Assembly (NCBI GenBank): GCA_963514005.1
Contig: OY740783.1
Coordinates: 99,324,001 to 99,388,000 of the forward strand
Length of the DNA stretch: 64,000 bases
Reading direction: 5' to 3'
Source: Raja brachyura
Lineage: Eukaryota
Shown here: piece after piece, positions 4,272-59,503 of the stretch
Layout of the letters: every line of letters begins with the position of its first letter
How positions within the stretch are numbered: position 1 is the stretch's first letter
Made by a program: the position numbers and the translations under genes
Notes under the pieces: generated by a model
What the model saw: only the letters and a program-made list of their open reading frames with translations
The model's database searches: none
Told to the model about the DNA's origin: nothing

Positions 4272-4652
4272 TACGTCGACGCTGTCGGTAGAGGAAAGAG
4301 CAGCAGAGCGCAGCTCCAACACAGCGGTAAGGAAACGGCCCCCAGGTAAGTGAAATTATTTTACTTCCAGGGCGTTTCAAAACTCCGTAGGCTGGTGGGT
4401 AAACCAGGAGGAGTAAAATTAAAATGGAGAAAGTTAAAAAATCGCGGGTAAAATGTGTGTCCTGGGGTGGAGAAGAGTCGGGACAGCAGATTATTGCGGA
4501 GCCGGTTCCGATACCGGTGGCCGTTGAAATGCCCGTTAGTGAGCCTTTGGTTGCTCCACAAACAGAAACTTTGGAGCAAAACCCAGTGCCTTAAAAAATA
4601 AATAAATAAATAAATAAAAGCTGAAAGGCCTGAGGTTTCTGATGAATCCGAT

Positions 4653-6716
4653 TTGGAAGATCCTCCAGAAAGGAAAGTCTTATGCCTCAGAATGGATCAA
4701 ATGGAGAAAATGCTCCAAACTATAATCAACCAAGGGTCTAAGAACCCAGAATATTCCCAGGCAGCCCCTGAGGGGGTTCCATATCATGAATATGGTGCCA
4801 GTTTGAATTGGGAATATGAAACTCCAGTGCCCGGGATTGGGCTGGAGGAAGTCTCCTTTGAACAAGTTTCAGGAGTACCAGGGCTGTATGAGACTGACCC
4901 TGAAAGTGGTGATTGCGGTCAGGAGTACCCACCACAATACAAATATGTTGATCCAGGTGTGCCTGATGTGGCACAAAGTTTTGCTATACCTGGAGGAGGC
5001 GGTGAGGCCATGGAAGAAAACCTGGCGGGCAATATTAATTATATGGTCTCTCACCCGCTTCAAGAAGCTGTTATGGTTGAGACAGCAGATTTGTATAAAA
5101 CACCTATCAATTGTACCTCACTGAAGGTACCTACGGTGAATCCGGTTATTTGGGCGCCAATGTCATCAATGATGTGGGCGCAGGAAATACGATTTCAAAG
5201 AATCCTCAAACTAATTTCGGCTGGCATCACTGCCTTTGGAAGACAAGTGGAAGGTTGTGGAATGACCAAAGTTCAGAAGCATATGTTGGCATTATTCTGC
5301 AACTCATTTTTTGAGATAAATTGTATGAGGAAGATTGCCATTCAGCCCATTTTACATCCAAGATTTGCAGGGTTGTGCAGATCAAGCAATGTTCAAGCTC
5401 CTGGTTATTTGATCGGAGAAAATCTGTCTAAACAAATTAAAGAAATTGATGAAGAGGCAAAAACTATTGGCCTTATGAAACCCTTCAATTTTGGCCAGAG
5501 AAGGGCCGGTCAAATGAGAAGGGGATTTGATTTTGGAGCTGGAACAAGCCGACGCAGGAGTATGGCAAGGAAGAATTACCAACCAGCACAGCCGAATGTT
5601 CACCCATTTGTTGGGAGAAGGAGATCACTACGTCCGGTTGGAGAGGTACAAAAACTTTATCCTATTAAAGAAGAATGTTTGGATGAACCTCAGATTGGTG
5701 GTAGACTCCGAATGTTTTATAATGAATGGGACAGTATAACATCTGACCGTGTTATATTAGAAACTGTTTTAGGATCTACCATTGATTTTGTAGAAGGTAT
5801 GGATCCACTGGGACAGAATAAGCCTTATCATAATTTGATGTTTTCTGTTCTTGAAAAAAATCAAATTGATAAAGAGGTTAAGAATTTGTGTAGGATAGGA
5901 GTTATCGAGAAAACAGGAGAGGATCCACAACAATTTGTGTCAAATATTTTCCCCAGACCAAAGAAAGATGGGGGTTGTAGAATCATTTTAGATCTCACAC
6001 AATTGAATACATTTGTCCAGTATAAACATTTTAAAACGGACACCTTCAACACTGCAATGCAGCTGGTATCAACAGGTTGTTATATGGCTACAATAGATTT
6101 GAAGGATGCATATTATTCAGTTCTAATTCATAATCACTTTCGCAGGTATTTAAAGTTTAAGTGGATGGGACAGCTGTGGCAATACAAAGCATTACCTAAT
6201 GGATTAAGCTCAGCACCTAGACTATTCACTAAATTGTTGAAGCCAGCACTTGCATTGCTAAGGGCACAAAAACACATTGTTATGGCTTATCTAGATGACA
6301 TTTTAATTGTCAATGCTAAGCAGGAGTCAGCTGAAAAATCAGTCTCAGCAACTACAAGTCTGTTTGAAAGGCTGGGGTTCCTGATTCATCCAACAAAATC
6401 TAAGTTACAGCCATCCCAAACCATTGAATATCTGGGGTTTGTGATTAATTCAGTTACCATGTTAGTAACTTTACCAAGAGATAAGGTTATTGATTTGACA
6501 AATGTGTGTCAGAGCCTGATTAACAAACCTTATCCCTCCATCCGAGAAGTTGCTAAGGTTATTGGGAAGTTAGTAGCAGCATTCCCAGCAGTGGAATTTG
6601 GTCCATTGCATTATCAAAATCTTAAAAGGGCACAAACTCAAGCGCTTATACAGCGAGCAGGCCATTTTGATAGGCCTATGCAATTGCCAAAGGAAGCCTT
6701 ATCAGAATTGCATTAG
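4653..6716 (+). CDS. DIRS gag-like plus reverse transcriptase ORF (N-terminus probably from ATG 4424, broken at a TAA/(AAAT)n tract; premature TAG at 6714-6716)
   Basis: gag-like KVPTVNPVIW..RKIAIQPILHPRFAGLC; pol start GGRLRMFYNEW; RT motifs PKKDGGCRIILDL, IDLKDAYY, LPNGLSSAP, YLDD, YLGFVI. Confidence 0.9.
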   Translation: MEDPPERKVLCLRMDQMEKMLQTIINQGSKNPEYSQAAPEGVPYHEYGASLNWEYETPVPGIGLEEVSFEQVSGVPGLYETDPESGDCGQEYPPQYKYVDPGVPDVAQSFAIPGGGGEAMEENLAGNINYMVSHPLQEAVMVETADLYKTPINCTSLKVPTVNPVIWAPMSSMMWAQEIRFQRILKLISAGITAFGRQVEGCGMTKVQKHMLALFCNSFFEINCMRKIAIQPILHPRFAGLCRSSNVQAPGYLIGENLSKQIKEIDEEAKTIGLMKPFNFGQRRAGQMRRGFDFGAGTSRRRSMARKNYQPAQPNVHPFVGRRRSLRPVGEVQKLYPIKEECLDEPQIGGRLRMFYNEWDSITSDRVILETVLGSTIDFVEGMDPLGQNKPYHNLMFSVLEKNQIDKEVKNLCRIGVIEKTGEDPQQFVSNIFPRPKKDGGCRIILDLTQLNTFVQYKHFKTDTFNTAMQLVSTGCYMATIDLKDAYYSVLIHNHFRRYLKFKWMGQLWQYKALPNGLSSAPRLFTKLLKPALALLRAQKHIVMAYLDDILIVNAKQESAEKSVSATTSLFERLGFLIHPTKSKLQPSQTIEYLGFVINSVTMLVTLPRDKVIDLTNVCQSLINKPYPSIREVAKVIGKLVAAFPAVEFGPLHYQNLKRAQTQALIQRAGHFDRPMQLPKEALSELH

Positions 6717-7572
6717 TCGATTGAGAATGTTCCACAAGCTGTTAAGAACATTCTAGTTTAGCAGCCAGTAGTGTTTTTGCAAACTGATGCAAGTTCTCTC
6801 GGATGGGGGGGCTACGGATAATGAGACCAGCTGTGGGGGCAGATGGTCTGTTCAAGAGGATTTATTGCTCCAAATATATGGTATAAATTATTTGGAGTTA
6901 CTGGGAGCATTTTATGGATTAAAAGCTTATTGTTCTACTATGAAGGATTTGCATGTCCAAATACAAATAGACAATACCACAGCTGTGGCATATATCAATC
7001 ACATGGGTGGAATAAGATCAATATCATGTGATCATCTGGTAAACCAGATGTGGCATTGGTGTATTGGTAAAAATATTTGGCTTTCAGCTATTTATCCCCA
7101 AGGGAGTGACAATGTTGTGGCAGACAAAAGATCACGAATATTTAAAGACAATACAGAATGGATGTTCAATCTACAAATTTTCAAAAATATAGTCAGTCGG
7201 TATGGAGTGCCAGACATTGATCTGTTTGCACCTAGATTGAATCACCAATTGCCCAAGTACGTGTCTTGGGAACAAGATCCAGGGGCAGTAGCGGTGGATG
7301 CTTTCTCGCTACACTGGGGGAATACGTTCTTTTATGCTTTTCCCCCATTTTGTCTGATTGGGCAATGTCTCAAGAAAATAGCGCAAGACGCTGCCAAAGG
7401 CATTTTGGTGGTACCAAATTTGCGTACGCAGTCATGGTTCCCATTGATGCTAAAAATGATTATTGAACCATGTGTGACAATTCCTAGTTGCAACAATTTG
7501 TTGACACAACCAGTAACAAAAGAAGTTCATCCATTGCATGATCATATGAATTTGTTAATCTGCAGGTTCTGA
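6717..7572 (+). pseudogene. DIRS RNase H plus N6-adenine methyltransferase-like domain (disrupted continuation of pol)
   Basis: RT frame continues to LQTDASSLGWG, then shifts in a G run to INYLELLGAF and QIDNTTAVAYINHMGG (RNase H), then IDLFA..DAF..W..YAFPPF (MT). Confidence 0.9.
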
Positions 7573-7580
7573 CCAGACCA

Positions 7581-8537
7581 TTGCAAGAGTTTGAACTGTC
7601 GGACAGGACCATGGATGTTATAGGTACAGCTTGGAGGAATAGCACTAAAAAACAATATATGTCGCATATAAGGAAATGGGAAGCCTTTTGTAGACAGTCA
7701 AAGATATCTTATCATACTGCAAACATTTCAAATGAATTGGAGTTCCTTGCTGGGTTACATTTTGATGAGCATTTGAGTTATAGTGCCATTAATTGTGCTC
7801 GTAGTGCTTTGTCGTCCTACTTAGGACAAATTTCTGATCGAGATTCAGTTGGGTCTCGCCCATTAGTATCCCGTATCATACCGGATTTTAATAAAAATCC
7901 TCCCAAGCCCAGATATACAAAAATTGGGGATGTTAGCATTGTTCTCACTTTGCTTAAGCAATGGACTCCAATTACTTCAATGTCTTTGCAGAAGTTAACA
8001 TTCAAGGTAGTAATGTTAATGGCATTAGTATCAGCTCAAAGAGTACAAACTTTGCAACTGTTACGGTTAGATTGCATGCATGTGGCTGCAGATAACATTG
8101 TGTTTTATGTTTATGATCTGATCAAACAAAGCAGACCGGGGAGAACTGGAGCTAAGGTAATGTTTAAAGCATATCCTATCGATGAAACATTGTGTGTAGT
8201 TAAGCATTTAACTCAATACATTGAAGTAACCAAAAATCTCAGAGGTTCTGAGACAGCGTTATTGATAACGCACAAAAAACCACATACAAAAGTTTCAGTT
8301 CAAACCATTTCTAGATGGTTAAAACAGGTTTTGGATCTAGCAGGAATAGACACTGATGTGTTTAAATCTCACTCCACTAGCGTGGCAGCTACGTCCGCGG
8401 CAAAGGTACAGGACGTACCACTCAATCAAATTTTAGAGGCCTCAGGGTGGTGTAGAGAAGAAACTTTTTCAAAGTTCTACGATAAACCTGTTGTCACGGT
8501 GCCAGGATTTGGACACGCAGTACTGGGTTCTCTTTAA
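7581..8537 (+). CDS. DIRS tyrosine recombinase (first ATG 7611; HxxR Arg mutated)
   Basis: SAQRVQTL (catalytic R), IKQSR, HSTS in place of HSTR, GW..EETFSKFY (catalytic Y). Confidence 0.9.
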   Translation: MQEFELSDRTMDVIGTAWRNSTKKQYMSHIRKWEAFCRQSKISYHTANISNELEFLAGLHFDEHLSYSAINCARSALSSYLGQISDRDSVGSRPLVSRIIPDFNKNPPKPRYTKIGDVSIVLTLLKQWTPITSMSLQKLTFKVVMLMALVSAQRVQTLQLLRLDCMHVAADNIVFYVYDLIKQSRPGRTGAKVMFKAYPIDETLCVVKHLTQYIEVTKNLRGSETALLITHKKPHTKVSVQTISRWLKQVLDLAGIDTDVFKSHSTSVAATSAAKVQDVPLNQILEASGWCREETFSKFYDKPVVTVPGFGHAVLGSL

Positions 8538-8792: not shown

Positions 8793-8893
8793 TTCACGTA
8801 GTCACTCACGTGACTCCGAAGTAAAATAGTAAGATTAAACGAGAACTTACCTTTTCGAAGTTTGATCTTTATTTTATGAGGAGTTACGATGAG
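8793..8893 (+). repeat. DIRS internal complementary region (ICR)
   Basis: 8793-8827 complementary to left end 4209-4243; 8821-8893 complementary to right end 9061-9133 (70/73). Confidence 0.92.
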
Positions 8894-9020
8894 TAGTTAC
8901 GTGCCCTCCGCTCCCAACCCTCATAATATAAATGATCATCTGGTAGTTCTAGTCTATGTTGGGCCTTACTATCTTACTCCGGCTATTGGTTCTGTGTTTT
9001 TCATGCCGCCGCTTTGAAGT

Positions 9021-9133
9021 ATGCCGATCAAGCGCCAGGCGGGGCTTCTTCACGTAATCCCTCATCGTAACTCCTCATAAAATAAAGATCAAACTTCGAA
9101 CTGGTAAGTTCTCATTTAATCTTACTATTTTAC
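9021..9133 (+). repeat. DIRS right ITR plus right extension
   Basis: 9021-9056 inverted to left ITR; 9061-9133 inverted to ICR; ends in ATTTTAC like the left end. Confidence 0.9.
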
Positions 9134-18541: not shown

Positions 18542-18866
18542 ATTCATCCCTGTTCTCAGTCATACAGCAGGGATACTGGCCTTTTGGCCCAACCTGTCCA
18601 TGCTAACCAAGCTACCCCATCCAAGCAAGTTCCACTTGCCTACGCTTGGCCCATATCTCTCCAAATCTTTCCTTTCCTCATACCTGTTCAAATGTTTCTT
18701 AAATGTTGTTTATGTATTTGCATGAAACAACTTTCTCTCGCAAAATGTTCTATATATACCCATAACCTTCTGTGTAAAAAAAATCCCCCTCTGATTCCTA
18801 TTAAATCTTTCCCATTCACATTAAACCCACGTCCTCAATTTGTGCCTTTCACGGAATGATGGCCAC

Positions 18867-19483
18867 CACCAACCCCGCACCAACCCCGCACCAGCCCCGC
18901 ACCAGCCCCGCACCAATCCGCCACCAACCCCACCCGCACCAGCCCCGCACCAGCCCCACACCAGCCTCACACCAACCCCACCCACACCAGCCCCACACCA
19001 ACCCCACCCACACCAGCCCCGCACCAGCCCCACACCAACCCCACCCACACCAGCCCCGCACCAGCCCCACACCAGCCCCACCCGCACCAGCCCCACACCA
19101 ACCCCACACCAACCCCACACCCACACCAACCCCGCACCCACACCACACCAGCCCCACACCCACACCAACCCCGCACCCACACCACACCAGCCCCACACCC
19201 ACACCAACCCCGCACCCACACCACACCAGCCCCACACCCACACCAACCCCGCACCCACACCACACCAGCCCCGCACCAGCCCCACACCAGCCCCACACCA
19301 GCCCCACACCCACACCAGCCCCGCACCAACCCCGCACCAACCCCGCACCAACCCCGCACCCACACCACACCCACACCACACCCACACCAGCCCCGCACCC
19401 ACACCAGCCCCACACCAGCCCGGTACCAGCCCCGCACCAGCCCCACACCAGCCCGGCATCAGCCCTGCACCGGCCCCGCACAG
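18867..19483. repeat. C-rich compound minisatellite
   Basis: 11-mers ACCA(G/A)CCCC(G/A)C mixed with ACCCAC/ACCAC; 39-bp higher-order unit repeated in about 19123-19265; almost no T on the plus strand. Confidence 0.95.
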
Positions 19484-20453
19484 CATGACCACAATTAAAA
19501 CCCCAGCCATGAGGGGGCCAAGGCTCAGGCACAACTCCACAAATTCCACCTGGTTCTTGTGTACAGCCTGACCAAGCTGCAATGGGGAGAAGGCAGAAGA
19601 ATGGGGTTAGGAGGGAGATTTAGATCAGCCATGATTGAATGGCGGAGTAGACGTGATGGGCCGGATGGCCGAATTCTGCTCCCATCTCTTAGGCGCTTAT
19701 GATAAAACAGCACAAAGAATACTGCTTATCAACTCAACAGCCTGCAAGTGATGCATGCCTGAAAATCATTCCTCAGCTGCACCCCTGCCTGAGGATAGCC
19801 TGTACATTCTAATGCATGTTTTCATTGAATTTATTGGCCATTGTATGCAAAGGTAATCCTTGAGTAAATAAACCAAGAATATCAGACACTGCTCCACAAT
19901 TTGGAAGATGCAATCACCTCTGGAATTGGACTTCTTTGTTCAGGTTTATACCTAGGGTATAATGTTGTCTGGGGAAAGGTAATCCAGGCCAAACTTCGGC
20001 TAAACATGACTAGAATGCTGCCTGAACACTTGACACTTGATAGGCGTGTAAGTGTTGCTTAATCATCAGCACAATGGCCAAAGGTAGAATGTGAAAGGAC
20101 AGCAATTAGCTGGGTTGGACATGGTTCTTTGTTGCGGCCAGGCAAATCTGGGCCATAAGTAGCTGCCAGTATTACATTACATTGCTGCTAGATCTTGCAC
20201 AGTCGTGGGAGCTCTGCTTGTGCTCTTCATTTATTCAAAAACAAAATGTTTTTTTTTAAAAGGCGAAGGAAATGAACTGGATAAGTGAACCTTTTCCTCA
20301 GTAGCAGAATAAGTAATGCCAGGATTACACTTGGGTGACTTGTATTATCTTTAGATGGACCTAAAAGCTGCAATTGATAGCTCAGCTAACATTGTAGCAT
20401 CATCTCTCTAGTCTGGATTTTTCCTTTGTCTCTTATAAAAGTGCTTAAACTTA

Positions 20454-29860: not shown

Positions 29861-29978
29861 GTTATGGTCTGAGATAGACACAAAATGCTGGAGTAAATCA
29901 GCAGGACAGGCCTGAGTTACTCCAGTATTTTGTGTCTATCCTTCATTTAAACCAGCATCTGCAGGTCTTGCCGTCTTG

Positions 29979-33395: not shown

Positions 33396-34037
33396 TAAGG
33401 TATTGCTTTGGCTGTAAAGTATTTTCAAATGCTCTGAGATTGCAATAGGTTCAAGTTTTCACATAAAGATGGATTAAATGACTCATAGGCACACACCTAA
33501 GTAACACCACAGATTATTGTGCAGTGAGGCAAGTGGCTATATATGAGACAGCGCCGCTGGAATCTTGCTCTTTATAATGGAACAACAGATTGCCAACTCA
33601 GTTGGGTGTCTCCAAAAAAGCCAGATCCTTAAAGCACCATGCATCACCATCACCTCCTCCACCAGGCACCAGCACAGTGACACACAACCATAGTGAGTGG
33701 CAATGAGGAGGAGGAAGCAGGGAAAGAGGTGAGTCACAGTGCTTGGTGAGAACAGCGTAACTGGTGCTGAAACCTGCTGACTGGGAGTCATACGCAGTTA
33801 TATAAGCTGTTACACCTCTGGTGCAATGCCAATGTTATGTTGCAGAAAAGATTGCTTCTTGGACCTCAGTAGAACTGACATTAGTGTATAAGTTCCATTG
33901 CTCAGTCTGGTGGAGAGTACCAAAAGATCGCTAACTAGAGTGATAGATGGGTGCAGTCTAATCTGCAGTCCACCAGGATGGGATACCCCAATCTTCTGTG
34001 AAACCATCCTGAAGCCTCAGTACAAAAGAAACAAATA

Positions 34038-34287
34038 TCATCACAATGGTCACACAAAAAGCTGGAGAAACTCAGCGGGTGCAGCAGCATCTAAGGAGTG
34101 CAGGAGATAGGCGACGTTTCGGGTCGAGACCCTTCTTCAGTCTGAAGAAGGGTCTCGACCCGAAACGTCGCCTATCTCCTTCACTCCTTAGATGCTGCTG
34201 CACCCGCTGAGTTTCTCCAGCTTTTTGTGTAACCCTCGATTCTCCAGCATCTGCAGTTCCTTCTTTAACTCTTCATCACAATGGTCA
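34038..34287. mobile_element. Penelope-derived mini-element: inverted pLTR pair with 15-bp TSD
   Basis: Arms 34052-34140 and 34142-34230 with one mismatch; TCATCACAATGGTCA at 34038-34052 and 34273-34287. Confidence 0.9.
34142..34169 (+). ncRNA. Minimal type I hammerhead ribozyme motif (mirror copy on minus strand 34113-34140)
   Basis: CTGAAGA-A-GGGTC-TC-GACCC-GAAA-CG-TC: conserved core, helix II and palindromic ACGT mini helix III; helix I is weak. Confidence 0.7.
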
Positions 34288-34339
34288 TCTTGTACAGCTC
34301 AAATTGCAAGCACGCTATGTTGGTCATTCTCCATGTGGC

Positions 34340-35910
34340 CTATCAATCCAAGGAAGGCTACTGGACCCGACGGCGTCTCTGGAAGCGTGCTGAAGGACTG
34401 CGCAGACCACCTGGCTGGAGTCTTCACGAGGATTTTTAACCAGTCTCTGGCCCAGTCCACTCTACCACCCTGTCTGAAGTCCGCAACCATAGTCCCCTTG
34501 CCCAAAAAACCCCACATTTCGAGCTTCAATGACTACCGGCCAGTCGCACTCACACCAGTGGTGATGAATTGTTTTGAAAAACTGGTCCGGGGTCATATCA
34601 CATCACTCCTGCCCCGAAGCTTTGACCCCCACCAGTTTGCGTACAGAGCGAATAGATCTACAGAGGACGCTGTAGCCACAGCTCTCCATGCTGCACTGTC
34701 CCACCTGGATCAGCGGGGGAGCTACGTGCGGATGCTCTTTGTGGACTACAGCTCTGCTTTTAATACTATCCTTCCCCACAAACTGGTGGACAAACTGGGT
34801 ACTTGGGACTTCCACACTCCACCTGCATGTGGATAAATAGTTTCCTGTCGGGTCGCAGCCAGAGAGTCAGAGTGGGCCATCACACATCCACGGCCCTCAG
34901 CCTCAGTACCGCTCTCCACAGGGCTGCGTGCTGAGCCCCCTGCTCTACACCATCTACACACATGACTGTACCCCCACCCACCACAGCAACACCATTGTCA
35001 AATTTGCGGATGACACTACGGTGGTGGGACTCATCTCCGGGGAGGACGAGTAAACTATCGGGATGAGGTGGAGCAGCTGACAGTGTGGTGTGGAGAAAAT
35101 AACCTGCCCCTCAACACCTTAAAGACCAAGGAGATAATAATAGACTTCCGGAAGAACAAAACGGACATGCTACCACTAATCATCAGAGGGGACTGTGTGG
35201 AGAGGGTGGCGGATTTCCGCTTCCTGGGAATCCATATTGAGGAGGACCTGACGTGGAGCGTGAACACCTCTGCGCTGCTGAAAAAGGTCCAGCAGAGGCT
35301 GCACTTCCCGAGGGTGCTCAGGAAGAATAACATCACTCAGAGACTGCTGCTGTCCTTTTATCGGTGCTCAATTGAGAGCATCCTAACATACTGTGTACGC
35401 GTGTGGTACACCAGCTGCACAGCGGCTCAGAGGAAAGCGCTCCAGAGGGCCATTGACAACACCCAGAGGATTGTCGGCTGCCCTCTCCTTACCTTGGAGG
35501 ACTTACACAGTTCCCGCTGCATCAAAAAATCCCAGAATATTATAAAGGACATTTCCCACCCTGGACACTCCCTGTTTGAACTGTTGCCGTCAGGCAGACG
35601 GTACAGATCTACAAGGACAAGGACAAACAGACTTAAAAACAGTTTTTACCCCACTGCTATAAAGGTACTAAGTGTAGCCACCAAGGAACGCAGGGACTAA
35701 GGGACTGTGGTTGGTACACTGTGAAATCGACAGAAGGATGTAGGGTTGGGTGTTTATGCGTGCTATTTTCACATTTATTTTAGTTGCTCATCTTTTTTTT
35801 AATATTTTACCTTGTATGTATCGTTAGCTTTTAGAAATGTTTGAATGGTGCACTGACTGGCTGACATTTTTAAAATTTCGTTGTACATGGTTCATGTTAC
35901 AATGACAATA
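34340..35910 (+). mobile_element. Rex1/Babar LINE RT fragment
   Basis: [47 protein letters not shown]; ends ATGACAATAAA. Confidence 0.92.
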
Positions 35911-56735: not shown

Positions 56736-57770
56736 GTAGACACAAAATGCTGGAGTAACTCAGCAGGTGAGGCAGCATCTCTGGAGGGAAGGAATGGGCG
56801 ACGTTTGTGGTCGAGATGCTTCTTCAGACTGATGTCAGGGGAGGGTGCGGGACAAAGATAGAATGTTGTCGGAGACAATAAGACTAGTGGGAGAACTGAG
56901 AAGGGGAAGGGGATGGAGAGAGAAAGCAAGGGCTATAAAAAGTTAGAGAAGTCAATGTTCATACTGCTGGGATGTAAACTACCCAAGCAAAATATGAGGT
57001 GATGTTCCTCCAATTTGTGCTGGGCCTGACTCTGACAACGGAGGAGGCCCAGGACAGAAAGGTCAGATTGGGAATGGGAGAGGGAGTTGAAGTGCTGAGC
57101 AACCAGGAGATCAGATAGGTTAAGATGAACTGAGCGGAGGTGTTCAGTGAAACGATCGCTGAGCCTGTGCTTGGTCTAACCCATGTAGAGAAGTAGACAC
57201 CTGGAACAGCAGATACAGTAGATGAGGTTTGAGGAGGTGCAAGTGAACCTCTGCCTCACCTGGAAAGACTACTTAGGTCCTTGGATGGAGTCGAGGGGAG
57301 AGGTAAAGGGGCAGGTGTTGCATCTCCTGTGGGTTGCTGGGGAAAGTACCTAGTTTGGTTTGGTTTGGGTGGTTTGGGTGGTTTGGGTGGGAAAGGATGA
57401 GTTGACCAGGGAGTTATGGAGGGAACGGTCTCTGTGCAAAGCAGAAAAGGGGCGGAGATGGGAAGATATGGCCAGTAGTGGGATCCCGTTGGAGGTGGCG
57501 AAAATGTTGGACGATTATACAGGGTGTGCAGTATGCGACGTCTGATGGGGTGGAAGGTGAGGACAGGGGGGACTCTGCCCTGGTTACGAATAGGGGGAGA
57601 GGGAGTAAGAGCGGAGCTGCGGGATATTGAGGAGACCGTAGTGAGAGCCTCGTCAATAATGGAAGATGGGAACCCCCGTTTCCTAAAGGACATGTCCGAT
57701 TCCCTGGTATGGAACACCTCATCCTGAGCGCAGATGTGGCATAGGCGGAGGAATTGGGCGTAGGCAGATG
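56736..57770 (-). mobile_element. Penelope-like element 3' half: linker, GIY-YIG endonuclease and pLTR
   Basis: FRKRGFP..RVPPVLTFHP, FTCTSSNLIYCICCSRC.LLYMG*TK.RL.DRF.EHLRSV, then TGACATCAGTCTGAAGAAG..AAACGTC pLTR. Confidence 0.9.
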
Positions 57771-59185
57771 TGGCGTAGATGGAATGAGGTGAGGGATGGA
57801 CAGATGGAACCCAGTGGGGGAGTGTGACGTGTCTTCATAACAAAGGGGAAGGGGGAAAGAGGGGAACAAAGGGAGAGAGATGGGTGCACTGGTGGAAGTG
57901 GGAAAGGAACCCAGGGATACCTGAAATTAGATAAATTAAGTGTTCATACCATTGGGATGCAAGCTACCCTCGAGGAATAGGAGGTAGTCATTTGTTACAT
58001 CATTACCAGGACCCATCAAATGATTAGAAAATCCTTTGGGATTGGCAAAATGCAGTTGCCTTTGCATAGTGTTGGATAACCGTGTTCATTCAGAGTAAAT
58101 TAAAATAATTTGCATAGACTTAGAACGGCCAGTTGCAGAAAAATCCCCGTCTCCAGAGCATAAACATCAAACAGCCAGTGCACAGTATTGAATGCCATCC
58201 TGCCCACTCAGAGATAAACCATGAATTCATCCTCACCACATGCACTAAATCCACAAACATCGTAGACTGCCTCCAAACGTGGTTCCATTAGTTTCAGAAA
58301 TGGCGTGCCTGCATAGCCATTTCCAGCTTCTCTTGTCCCAGTGGAAGTGATTGAAATTAATTTCTAATCTTAGGCTCTCAAGTGCATCACCAAAGCCTGA
58401 GTGAGTACAGAAGGCCCAACAATGTAATGGCGTCATTTACCTGCTCAAAACCATAGAATTAAAACAATGATTTTCCTTCAACGTCAGCCCTGCAGGATGA
58501 CCAGAAAATAGACTACCCTGAAACCAGATCCCAAAGAAAGGAGATGTTATTCTTTGATGGCTTCCAAAGGTTAAATGATGCAGCAAGATTACACAAACTG
58601 TGGGTGGTTATTTGAAGAGTAAAGAGAAGGAACTATTTCTTCTGGCAGGGGAATTAAAAAACCAGTGGGAATATTTTCAAATTTGCAGCATGCTGTTCAG
58701 AGAAGCTCAGAAACATGCCTGCAGAGAGAAGGGGAGAAGCTTGGAAATGCTTCCTTTTTTCAGAGATAAACTACGAGGACAGGTTGCACGGAAAATGTTA
58801 ATATTCTATTGTTTAAAGAGGTTTAAGGGGTGGCATAATTGAAGCGTACATTATTAAAATATGGAATAAATGGAATAAAATATGATAAATGGAAGCTTTT
58901 ATCTCTCCTGTGAGAAATACATTGAAGCACTGAGGAAATGAGTGTGGAGATTGGCAGCATGGTCTAAGAAGTGAGTACAGCGTTGTATTGCCGAGGGCTT
59001 GTAATGTCAGGTTGATCTAATCGATGGGATGTTGGGTTGACCTTACTGGGGAATTGCTAGCTTCCTGATATTAAATTTTAAACTAAACTTCCAAGGGAAG
59101 AGTCACTCGAACAACAGAACCGTTTCGGTATTTCAAGAGCAGAACTGAACCAGGGGTCAGAACAGAAGTAGAACAGAAGACCAGA

Positions 59186-59503
59186 ACAGAGAGTTGTGAG
59201 TCTGTGGAATTCTCTGCCTCAGAGGGCGGTGGAGGCCGGTTCTCTGGATACTTTCAAGACAGAGCTTGCAAGGGTTCTTAAACATAGCGGAGTCAAGGGA
59301 TATGGGGAGAAGGCAGGAATGGGGGGTTACACAAAAAGCTGGAGAAACTCAGCGGGTGCAGCAGCATCTAAGGAGCGAAGGAGATAGTCGAGACCCTAGA
59401 ATGGGGTACTGATTGGGGATGATCAGCCATGATCACATTGAATGGCGGTGCTGGCTGGAGGGGCCGAATGGCCTACTCCTGCACCTATTGTTTATTGTCT
59501 ATT
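59186..59503 (+). mobile_element. CR1 3' end with nested minus-strand pLTR piece (59325-59398)
   Basis: GAATGGGG at 59317-59324 and 59399-59406 flanks a piece of the same pLTR subfamily as 34052-34140. Confidence 0.8.

What the first reader, a model, noticed from the sequence alone, without database searches (positions are those of the whole stretch)
34052..34230. Back-to-back hammerhead ribozymes forming a near-perfect palindrome
Seen: two 89-bp arms (one mismatch, 1-nt spacer at 34141) meet exactly at the CTGAAGA box, so each strand encodes CUGAAGA-A-helix II-GAAACGUC with predicted cleavage after C34169 (plus) or its mirror. The same sequence follows the GIY-YIG ORF at about 56795-56830, tying it to a Penelope pLTR. 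Established: Penelope-like elements carry minimal type I hammerheads with palindromic helix III thought to act as dimers. Inference: a protein-free ~220-bp mobile ribozyme/hairpin unit that yields dsRNA from either strand or a DNA cruciform. Caveat: helix I is only about 2 bp and the long hairpin should out-compete the ribozyme fold.
Basis: partly seen in the sequence, partly recalled or inferred. Interest (0 to 1): 0.72.

Follow-up and report, generated by a model that had tools for sequence, protein, structure and literature searches.

The report
Twin-primed Penelope retroelement mini-palindrome
This 220-base mirror-image insertion is real and is one of more than a thousand short stumps of a young Penelope-like jumping gene; it was likely built afresh at this site by copying the start of one RNA onto both cut ends of the target DNA, not spread as a self-contained ribozyme, and its ribozyme motifs are predicted to be locked shut by the hairpin.

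Summary
The palindrome is real: 89-bp arms, one mismatch, centre 34141. It is the shortest form of insertion of a young Penelope-like element (Neptune/Nematis-type RT plus GIY-YIG). The 27-bp centre occurs 1,237 times. The same one-tail, 13-17-bp-TSD layout runs from 145 to 3,872 bp. It does not behave as a unit that copies itself: the centre base is T or A relative to the tail 195:188 across three subfamilies, both arms share subfamily variants, and the tailed arm is often the more truncated. Best reading (about 0.7): both target nicks prime reverse transcription at two start sites on one RNA, and the cDNAs join at the micro-palindrome CAG-T-CTG. Minimal hammerhead cores are present but helix I is 2 bp, Rfam finds none, and the hairpin is predicted to exclude the fold. 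The architecture is published; I found no paper with the centre-base test. The scan reached the same twin-priming reading in other genomes.

The parts
34038..34052 (+). Target-site duplication, left copy (15 bp)
   Evidence: Exact repeat at 34273-34287; present once in the empty site in runs X21 and X22
34052..34140 (-). Short (tail-less) arm: inverted copy of pLTR positions 1-89; its last base is shared with the TSD
   Evidence: short arms end at 92-95 in 72 of 115 sister loci
34113..34140 (-). Minimal type I hammerhead core, minus strand (C3 at 34140, C17 at 34113)
   Evidence: motif scan; no Rfam hit; predicted not to fold
34138..34144 (.). Junction micro-palindrome CAG-T-CTG, native to the element's pLTR; centre base 34141
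   Evidence: native upstream ...CCCTGACCAGT in 12,840 copies; centre T:A 195:188
34142..34169 (+). Minimal type I hammerhead core, plus strand; predicted cut after C34169; helix I 2 bp
34142..34230 (+). Tailed arm, pLTR positions 1-89 (A42 subfamily variant in both arms)
34231..34269 (+). PLE 'tail' (positions 90-128), the stretch between the two inferred RT start sites; in full elements it runs on into the ORF
   Evidence: tail ends 125-130 in 100 of 115 loci; continuation into ORF in L309 and L304
34270..34272 (+). Three extra nucleotides not in the element or the empty site
34273..34287 (+). Target-site duplication, right copy
56740..56827 (-). pLTR end of an older subfamily, 84% identical to the arm, hammerhead core damaged
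56939..57789 (-). Decayed PLE RT-thumb, linker and GIY-YIG fragment of the older subfamily
   Evidence: tblastn with the L301 ORF, 52-64% identity, E 2e-78

Best explanation
This is a 220-bp, TSD-flanked head-to-head insertion of the hammerhead-bearing end of a young Penelope-like retrotransposon, likely built at this site by twin priming rather than copied from an earlier palindrome. Shown: the parent element, the two fixed 3' ends (about 94 and 128), the 14-15-bp TSD, one tail per inverted pair, shared arm variants, and a 50:50 centre base. Inferred: the RT-endonuclease, probably a dimer, nicks both strands 14-15 nt apart; one 3'-OH primes at position ~128 and the other at ~94 of the same RNA; both cDNAs run off the RNA 5' end at about -3 (possibly a transcription start at the Inr-like CCAGTCT); their 3' ends anneal at (C)AG-A-CT(G) with an A.A mismatch that is resolved either way; fill-in gives the palindrome. 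The ribozyme is a passenger here: uncut RNA was the template and the long hairpin is predicted to block its fold.
For: Centre base relative to the tail, exact 114-nt genome-wide counts: G42 108 T:122 A, A42 80:56, C44 7:10; total 195:188, binomial p 0.76. Arms share the subfamily base: G42 58 of 58, A42 54 of 57 full palindromes, rare non-CpG C44 15 of 16; L258 arms 0.28% apart against a 2.6% median to other copies, 13 rare shared variants. One-tail rule: 155 of 158 unique head-to-head pairs have one tail, 0 have two; 52 of 55 pairs not selected on the tail; only 36 of 116 unpaired arms are tailed. In asymmetric joins the tailed arm is the shorter in 12 and the longer in 3 (two of the 12 are duplicates of one event), by up to 1.4 kb, which fold-back cannot give. 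Same ends and TSDs from 145 to 3,872 bp. 5' ends pile up at -2 to -4 (13 of 76 incidental arms; 0 at the cut site 28-30; 6,610 and 4,464 copies). In vitro, a PLE protein cuts and extends both strands, starts at two sites bounding the tail, is predicted to be a dimer and does not need ribozyme cleavage (PMC11167929).
Against: All evidence is from fixed genomic copies; no intermediate was seen. The A42 subfamily leans to T (80:56, p 0.048) and the three subfamilies are marginally heterogeneous (p 0.064), leaving room for some inherited centres. About ten private variants are symmetric in 36 young copies, so some arm-to-arm conversion after insertion may occur. The annealing homology is only 2-3 bp on each side of the mismatch. 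Solo insertions are common, so double priming is not the only outcome. 'One RNA molecule' cannot be told from 'two RNAs of one source locus' except through the one-tail rule. The 5' end as a transcription start is untested: only contigs were available. 3 of 55 unselected pairs have no tail. The in vitro data are for a Poseidon element, a different clade.
Confidence: 0.7

Rival explanations
1. Fold-back or self-priming: one cDNA (or an antisense RNA, as proposed in PMC3846280) snaps back at the micro-palindrome and copies itself; the centre is later randomised by inversion between the arms.
For: Published reading of PLE junction palindromes (PMC3846280 Discussion). Explains shared arm variants directly. 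Some private variants are symmetric.
Against: Predicts a fixed centre base and a tailed arm never shorter at its 5' end; observed 195:188 and 12 of 15 asymmetric joins with the tailed arm shorter. Rescue by fast flipping is disfavoured: 70 one-arm differences persist in 36 young copies; mismatch-free short arms are as common with A (45 of 59) as with T (39 of 56); duplicated loci keep their centre (L005-L007, L011-L012; small n).
Confidence: 0.15
2. One reading: the palindrome is a non-autonomous mobile unit (retrozyme- or SINE-like) transcribed from palindromic masters and re-inserted whole.
For: 1,237 exact centres, stereotyped length and TSDs; A42 skew 80:56; PLE-derived non-autonomous retrozymes exist (10.64898/2026.07.22.740005).
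Against: Needs separate T and A masters in each of three subfamilies and new variants arising in both arms at once; recurrent arm mismatches fall in different subfamilies and centres; continuum with solo and ORF-bearing inverted copies; no tandem array; hairpin is predicted to block the ribozyme.
Confidence: 0.1
3. MITE-like DNA transposon with terminal inverted repeats.
For: Short, inverted, high copy number, TSD-flanked.
Against: Ends are unequal (one tail) and ragged, TSD length varies, and the sequence is the pLTR of an RT-encoding element.
Confidence: 0.02
4. Assembly or library fold-back artefact.
For: Near-perfect palindromes can be artefacts (general knowledge).
Against: Both junctions in an independent short-read contig set and the empty site in two others; TSD; one-sided tail; arm mismatch.
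Confidence: 0.01

Closest known systems
EN+ Penelope-like element insertions with head-to-head inverted pLTR, junction palindrome, one-sided 30-40-nt tail and TSD (Pen2a_Av and others, PMC3846280; general scheme PMC8557442 Fig. 2)
   Same: Inverted pLTR copy, palindromic junction, tail at one end, TSD, pLTR running into the ORF start.
   Different: Here the whole insert is only the two pLTR ends (220 bp), TSD is 14-15 bp rather than 8-10, and the junction is fixed at one micro-palindrome in over 1,200 copies; the published explanation is self-priming.
PAc (Poseidon, Anolis carolinensis) in vitro system, PMC11167929
   Same: Two RT start sites bounding the tail, near the ORF start, downstream of the hammerhead; uncut RNA as template.
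   Different: Different clade (no linker Zn finger); the main text I read does not connect both-strand extension to the inverted genomic layout; here the ORF ATG lies at about +165, outside the ribozyme.
Minimal type I hammerheads of metazoan PLEs, PMC4209133
   Same: CUGANGA and GAAA boxes, bulged base before helix II, no helix III, palindromic ACGU needing a dimer; 2-bp helix I as in the D. virilis variant.
   Different: Helix II is 4 bp, not 7-8; head-to-head copies lie on opposite strands and cannot form the cis dimer.
L1 twin priming (name and mechanism recalled; PMC2837659 seen only in a search listing)
   Same: Both target nicks prime cDNA on one RNA; cDNAs joined by microhomology; inversion with TSD.
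   Different: In L1 the two cDNAs cover non-overlapping RNA; here they overlap almost fully, giving a palindrome, and both starts are fixed.
Animal non-LTR retrozymes (10.64898/2026.07.22.740005)
   Same: Short, non-coding, type I hammerhead, PLE-derived.
   Different: Retrozymes are head-to-tail tandems with a ribozyme per unit; this is a single head-to-head pair.

Membership tests
EN+ Penelope-like elements | Single ORF with RT and C-terminal GIY-YIG endonuclease | tested here: met
   Parent ORF open for 1,208 codons in L301; Pfam RVT_1 E 9e-5 and GIY-YIG E 6e-4, both under the curated cut-offs; 1,603 homologues, many with the same domains
EN+ Penelope-like elements | CCHH motif with two Cys between GIY and YIG | tested here: met
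   NLIYCIRCSRCQLIYIG followed by His residues; definition from PMC8557442
EN+ Penelope-like elements | pLTR from partial tandem, overlapping the ORF 5' region | tested here: met
   L309: 3' part, arm and tail run into the ORF
EN+ Penelope-like elements | Inverted copy, optional 30-40-nt tail, variable TSD | tested here: met
Neptune/Nematis clades | CX2-5CxxC Zn-finger-like linker before the EN | tested here: met
   CNRKRCYTC; definition
Neptune/Nematis clades | RT phylogeny placing it in Neptune rather than Nematis | not tested
   No named reference PLE sequences were available; clade name rests on the motif
Minimal type I hammerhead (min-HHR) | Conserved core boxes, helix II, palindromic 15.2-16.2 region | tested here: met
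   descriptor features from PMC4209133
Minimal type I hammerhead (min-HHR) | Helix I of 4-5 bp and a foldable core | tested here: not met
   2 bp only; helix II probability 0.002-0.007 in native RNA and 4e-20 in the palindrome (energy model only, protein assistance not modelled)
Minimal type I hammerhead (min-HHR) | Self-cleavage (dimer or protein-assisted) | not testable with these tools
   No raw RNA reads
Non-LTR retrozyme | Head-to-tail tandem units each with an HHR | tested here: not met
   Single head-to-head pair between TSDs
MITE | Equal terminal inverted repeats, fixed ends and TSD length, transposase parent | tested here: not met

The most novel reading that the evidence does not exclude
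These mini-palindromes are fossils of the PLE integration intermediate: one RNP primes both target nicks at two fixed sites of one RNA, and the 50:50 centre base records the heteroduplex where the two cDNA ends met. That would replace antisense self-priming as the origin of PLE inverted repeats, explain the one-sided tail, and give a one-nucleotide read-out for testing the mechanism.
Probability: 0.6. Interest if true: 0.6.

Novelty: new member of a known kind. Interest (0 to 1): 0.42.

Why it matters
The locus itself is an ordinary dead insertion. The set of copies matters because reviews still call the origin of PLE tandem/inverted structures undefined (PMC8557442) and the in vitro paper leaves the later steps unvalidated (PMC11167929). 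The one-tail rule, arm identity and centre-base ratio separate twin priming from fold-back and can be tested directly. The family is young (site empty in two related data sets whose flanks differ by 3 and 7 substitutions) and has long open ORFs, so it is a practical Neptune-type test system. Over a thousand near-perfect 90-bp hairpins could also be a source of dsRNA when host transcripts read through, which is untested.

Tried and rejected
Rfam scan: no hammerhead at E<=1 in the window. Pfam on the three decayed window frames at 56936-57834: 0 families; the link came from tblastn. PDB sequence search with the parent ORF: 0 hits. Spliced-template idea (CAG|TCTG as acceptor, as for the D. virilis intron): copies starting at -2/-3 abut unrelated flank DNA with no shared exon in 60 loci; rejected. 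Ribozyme-cut RNA as template: 0 of 76 incidental arms start at 28-30; rejected. Excess conservation of the core in copies: 11 of 70 one-arm differences fall in the 8 nt of GAAACGTC, no deficit (positions 1-13 were fixed by the search). Helix II covariation across subfamilies: uninformative, one form dominates. Cap-derived G: base -4 is G 54, A 35, T 11 in the first 100 listed, suggestive only, since older subfamilies and mirror joins are mixed in. RNA evidence: only contigs, RNA status guessed; no start, end or cut site can be read. Pair counts were not de-duplicated and were redone. In one search the 'min' control includes the same locus fetched twice and was ignored; 4 of 8 long pairs gave no result. 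My early note that the insert lies inside a LINE was wrong: it lies in single-copy DNA about 50 bp before the LINE fragment (depth). Literature searches found no paper proposing twin priming for PLEs or using the centre base; Arkhipova 2006, Evgen'ev and Arkhipova 2005 and Pyatkov 2004 were not read, and supplements (notably Fig. S2 of PMC11167929) were not seen and may bear on this. No genome-wide gapped count over both arms was obtained, so arm concordance rests on the fetched loci.

Full report
Observation. The window holds two 89-bp arms (34052-34140, 34142-34230) around T34141 with one mismatch. The right arm continues for 39 nt of element sequence (to 34269) and 3 extra nt, and the 220-bp insert is flanked by a 15-bp direct repeat. 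Laying public contigs on 33700-34600 showed both junctions with no differences in run X19, and single contigs in X21 and X22 passing from 34037 to 34273, the empty site with one copy of the repeat. It is a real, recent insertion with a TSD. Each strand carries a minimal hammerhead core; Rfam finds none.

Family. The 27-bp centre occurs 1,237 times in the 2.7-Gb genome, 0 for the reversed control. The arm is the end of a much larger family: 12,840 copies carry the native upstream sequence. Following it led to an element of about 4.2 kb with an ORF open for 1,208 codons in L301, with RT, a CX4CxxC linker and a CCHH-type GIY-YIG domain. Named relatives come from cartilaginous fishes and marine invertebrates; that the host is a cartilaginous fish is inferred from them. 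In the partial tandem L309 the arm and tail run on into the ORF, whose ATG lies at about +165. By the motifs listed in PMC8557442 (passages) this is an EN+ PLE of Neptune/Nematis type. The window copy at 56740-57789 is an older, decayed subfamily.

Architecture of sister copies. I fetched 120 of the 366 exact matches (119 unique). The longest flanking repeat is 14 or 15 bp in 74 and 13-19 bp in 105. Among the 115 with a repeat of 8 bp or more, the short arm ends at 92-95 in 72 and the tail at 125-130 in 100. In the first 50 places, chosen only on the centre (47 unique), 41 have one tail and none two; the 6 scored as tail-less include rearranged or short-armed copies, and L016 has a displaced tail. 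Over all loci then held, 155 of 158 unique head-to-head pairs have one tail, 0 two, 3 none; 52 of 55 among pairs not selected on the tail, while 36 of 116 unpaired arms are tailed. Spans run from 145 to 3,872 bp with the same ends and mostly 13-17-bp TSDs. Solo arms ending at 94 or 127 also occur.

Is the palindrome copied as a unit? Exact genome-wide counts of centre plus tailed arm give T:A of 108:122, 80:56 and 7:10 in three subfamilies, 195:188 in all. The subfamily base is shared by both arms in 58 of 58, 54 of 57 and 15 of 16 full palindromes. A unit copied from palindromic masters would inherit one centre base and would carry new variants in one arm. Both arms therefore come from one template at each insertion, and the centre is set anew. 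Against a clean result: the A42 skew (p 0.048), heterogeneity p 0.064, and about ten symmetric private variants in 36 copies.

Fold-back or two cDNAs? A cDNA started at the tail that snaps back always leaves T towards the tail and can never leave the tailed arm shorter at its 5' end; the same holds for antisense self-priming, the reading in PMC3846280 (Discussion read). Observed are 50:50 centres and 12 of 15 asymmetric joins with the tailed arm shorter, by up to 1.4 kb. Later flipping of the centre could rescue fold-back for the first point but not the second, and 70 one-arm differences persist in 36 young copies. Two independently primed cDNAs joined by microhomology fit all of it. The one-tail rule suggests the two starts are used together on one RNA. 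PMC11167929 (parts 1-2 of 4 and passages read) supplies the biochemistry in another clade: both strands cut and extended, two starts bounding the tail, predicted dimer, ribozyme cleavage not required.

Why the junction sits at the CTGA box. Many copies end 2-3 nt upstream of the core: 6,610 and 4,464 copies match patterns with non-native bases there (these include older subfamilies), and 13 of 76 incidental arms end at -2 to -4, none at the cut site. The flanks share no exon. The simplest reading is an RNA 5' end at about -3; CCAGTCT fits the initiator consensus YYANWYY (recalled). Two cDNAs ending there are self-complementary over AG-A-CT, with an A.A mismatch. This step is inferred.

The ribozyme. 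The core matches the minimal PLE hammerhead of PMC4209133 (parts 1-2 of 4 read), which needs a dimer and cleaves weakly. Helix I is 2 bp. In the palindromic RNA the hairpin is -180 kcal/mol and helix II has probability about 4e-20; in the native RNA the 5' end is predicted to pair with the tail instead. Back-to-back cores lie on opposite strands and cannot form the tandem dimer. Activity in the parent, with protein help, is not excluded.

Comparison and novelty. The layout is published (PMC3846280 passages; PMC8557442 passages). Retrozymes (bioRxiv 10.64898/2026.07.22.740005, part 1 of 5 and passages) are head-to-tail and differ. Seven searches found no twin-priming model for PLEs, but older key papers and all supplements were not seen. 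I recorded my reading; the later look-up shows that other agents of this scan reached the same reading in other genomes. Those notes are unchecked and are not counted as support.

Verdict. Real; a new member of a known kind; not a self-propagating ribozyme element. Interest 0.42, for the mechanistic handle the copies give.

Noticed in passing
window 29872-29967: Second head-to-head join, older PLE subfamily, with a different junction (about positions 62/66) and a tail on one arm; it is the Rfam mir-1756 chance hit.
   Followed up: partly
window 59317-59391 (-): Short young-family copy with an internal deletion through the GAAACGTC box, inserted in a LINE 3' end.
   Followed up: partly
window 4614-8537 (-): Three consecutive long frames with RT (YLDD), RNase H-like and tyrosine-recombinase-like sequence: looks like a fairly intact DIRS-type retrotransposon (by eye).
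   Followed up: no
window 34320-35700 (+): 5'-truncated decayed LINE RT fragment starting about 50 bp right of the insertion (RVT_1 E 7.6e-11; depth).
   Followed up: partly
window 18852-19500: 11/15/17-bp period tandem repeat of about 650 bp.
   Followed up: no
L256 542-4287; L258; L306: Long inverted insertions; L256 is a 3.9-kb near-perfect palindrome with RT-EN frames open in both arms and a 16-bp TSD.
   Followed up: yes
L265 6454-6696: Two family copies tail to tail about 20 bp apart, one tailed and one not; unexplained (two hits at one site, or flanking duplication).
   Followed up: no
L037, L202 junctions: 60 and 109 nt of foreign sequence captured between the two arms; the L202 filler resembles a 5S rRNA-derived repeat (by eye, recalled).
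   Followed up: no
L309 arm region: An upstream ATG at arm position 51 opens about 37 codons out of frame with the main ORF, and the RNA 5' end is predicted to pair with the tail.
   Followed up: no
window 8821-9133: Another inverted repeat, 83-nt arms, 93% complementary, 147 nt apart.
   Followed up: no
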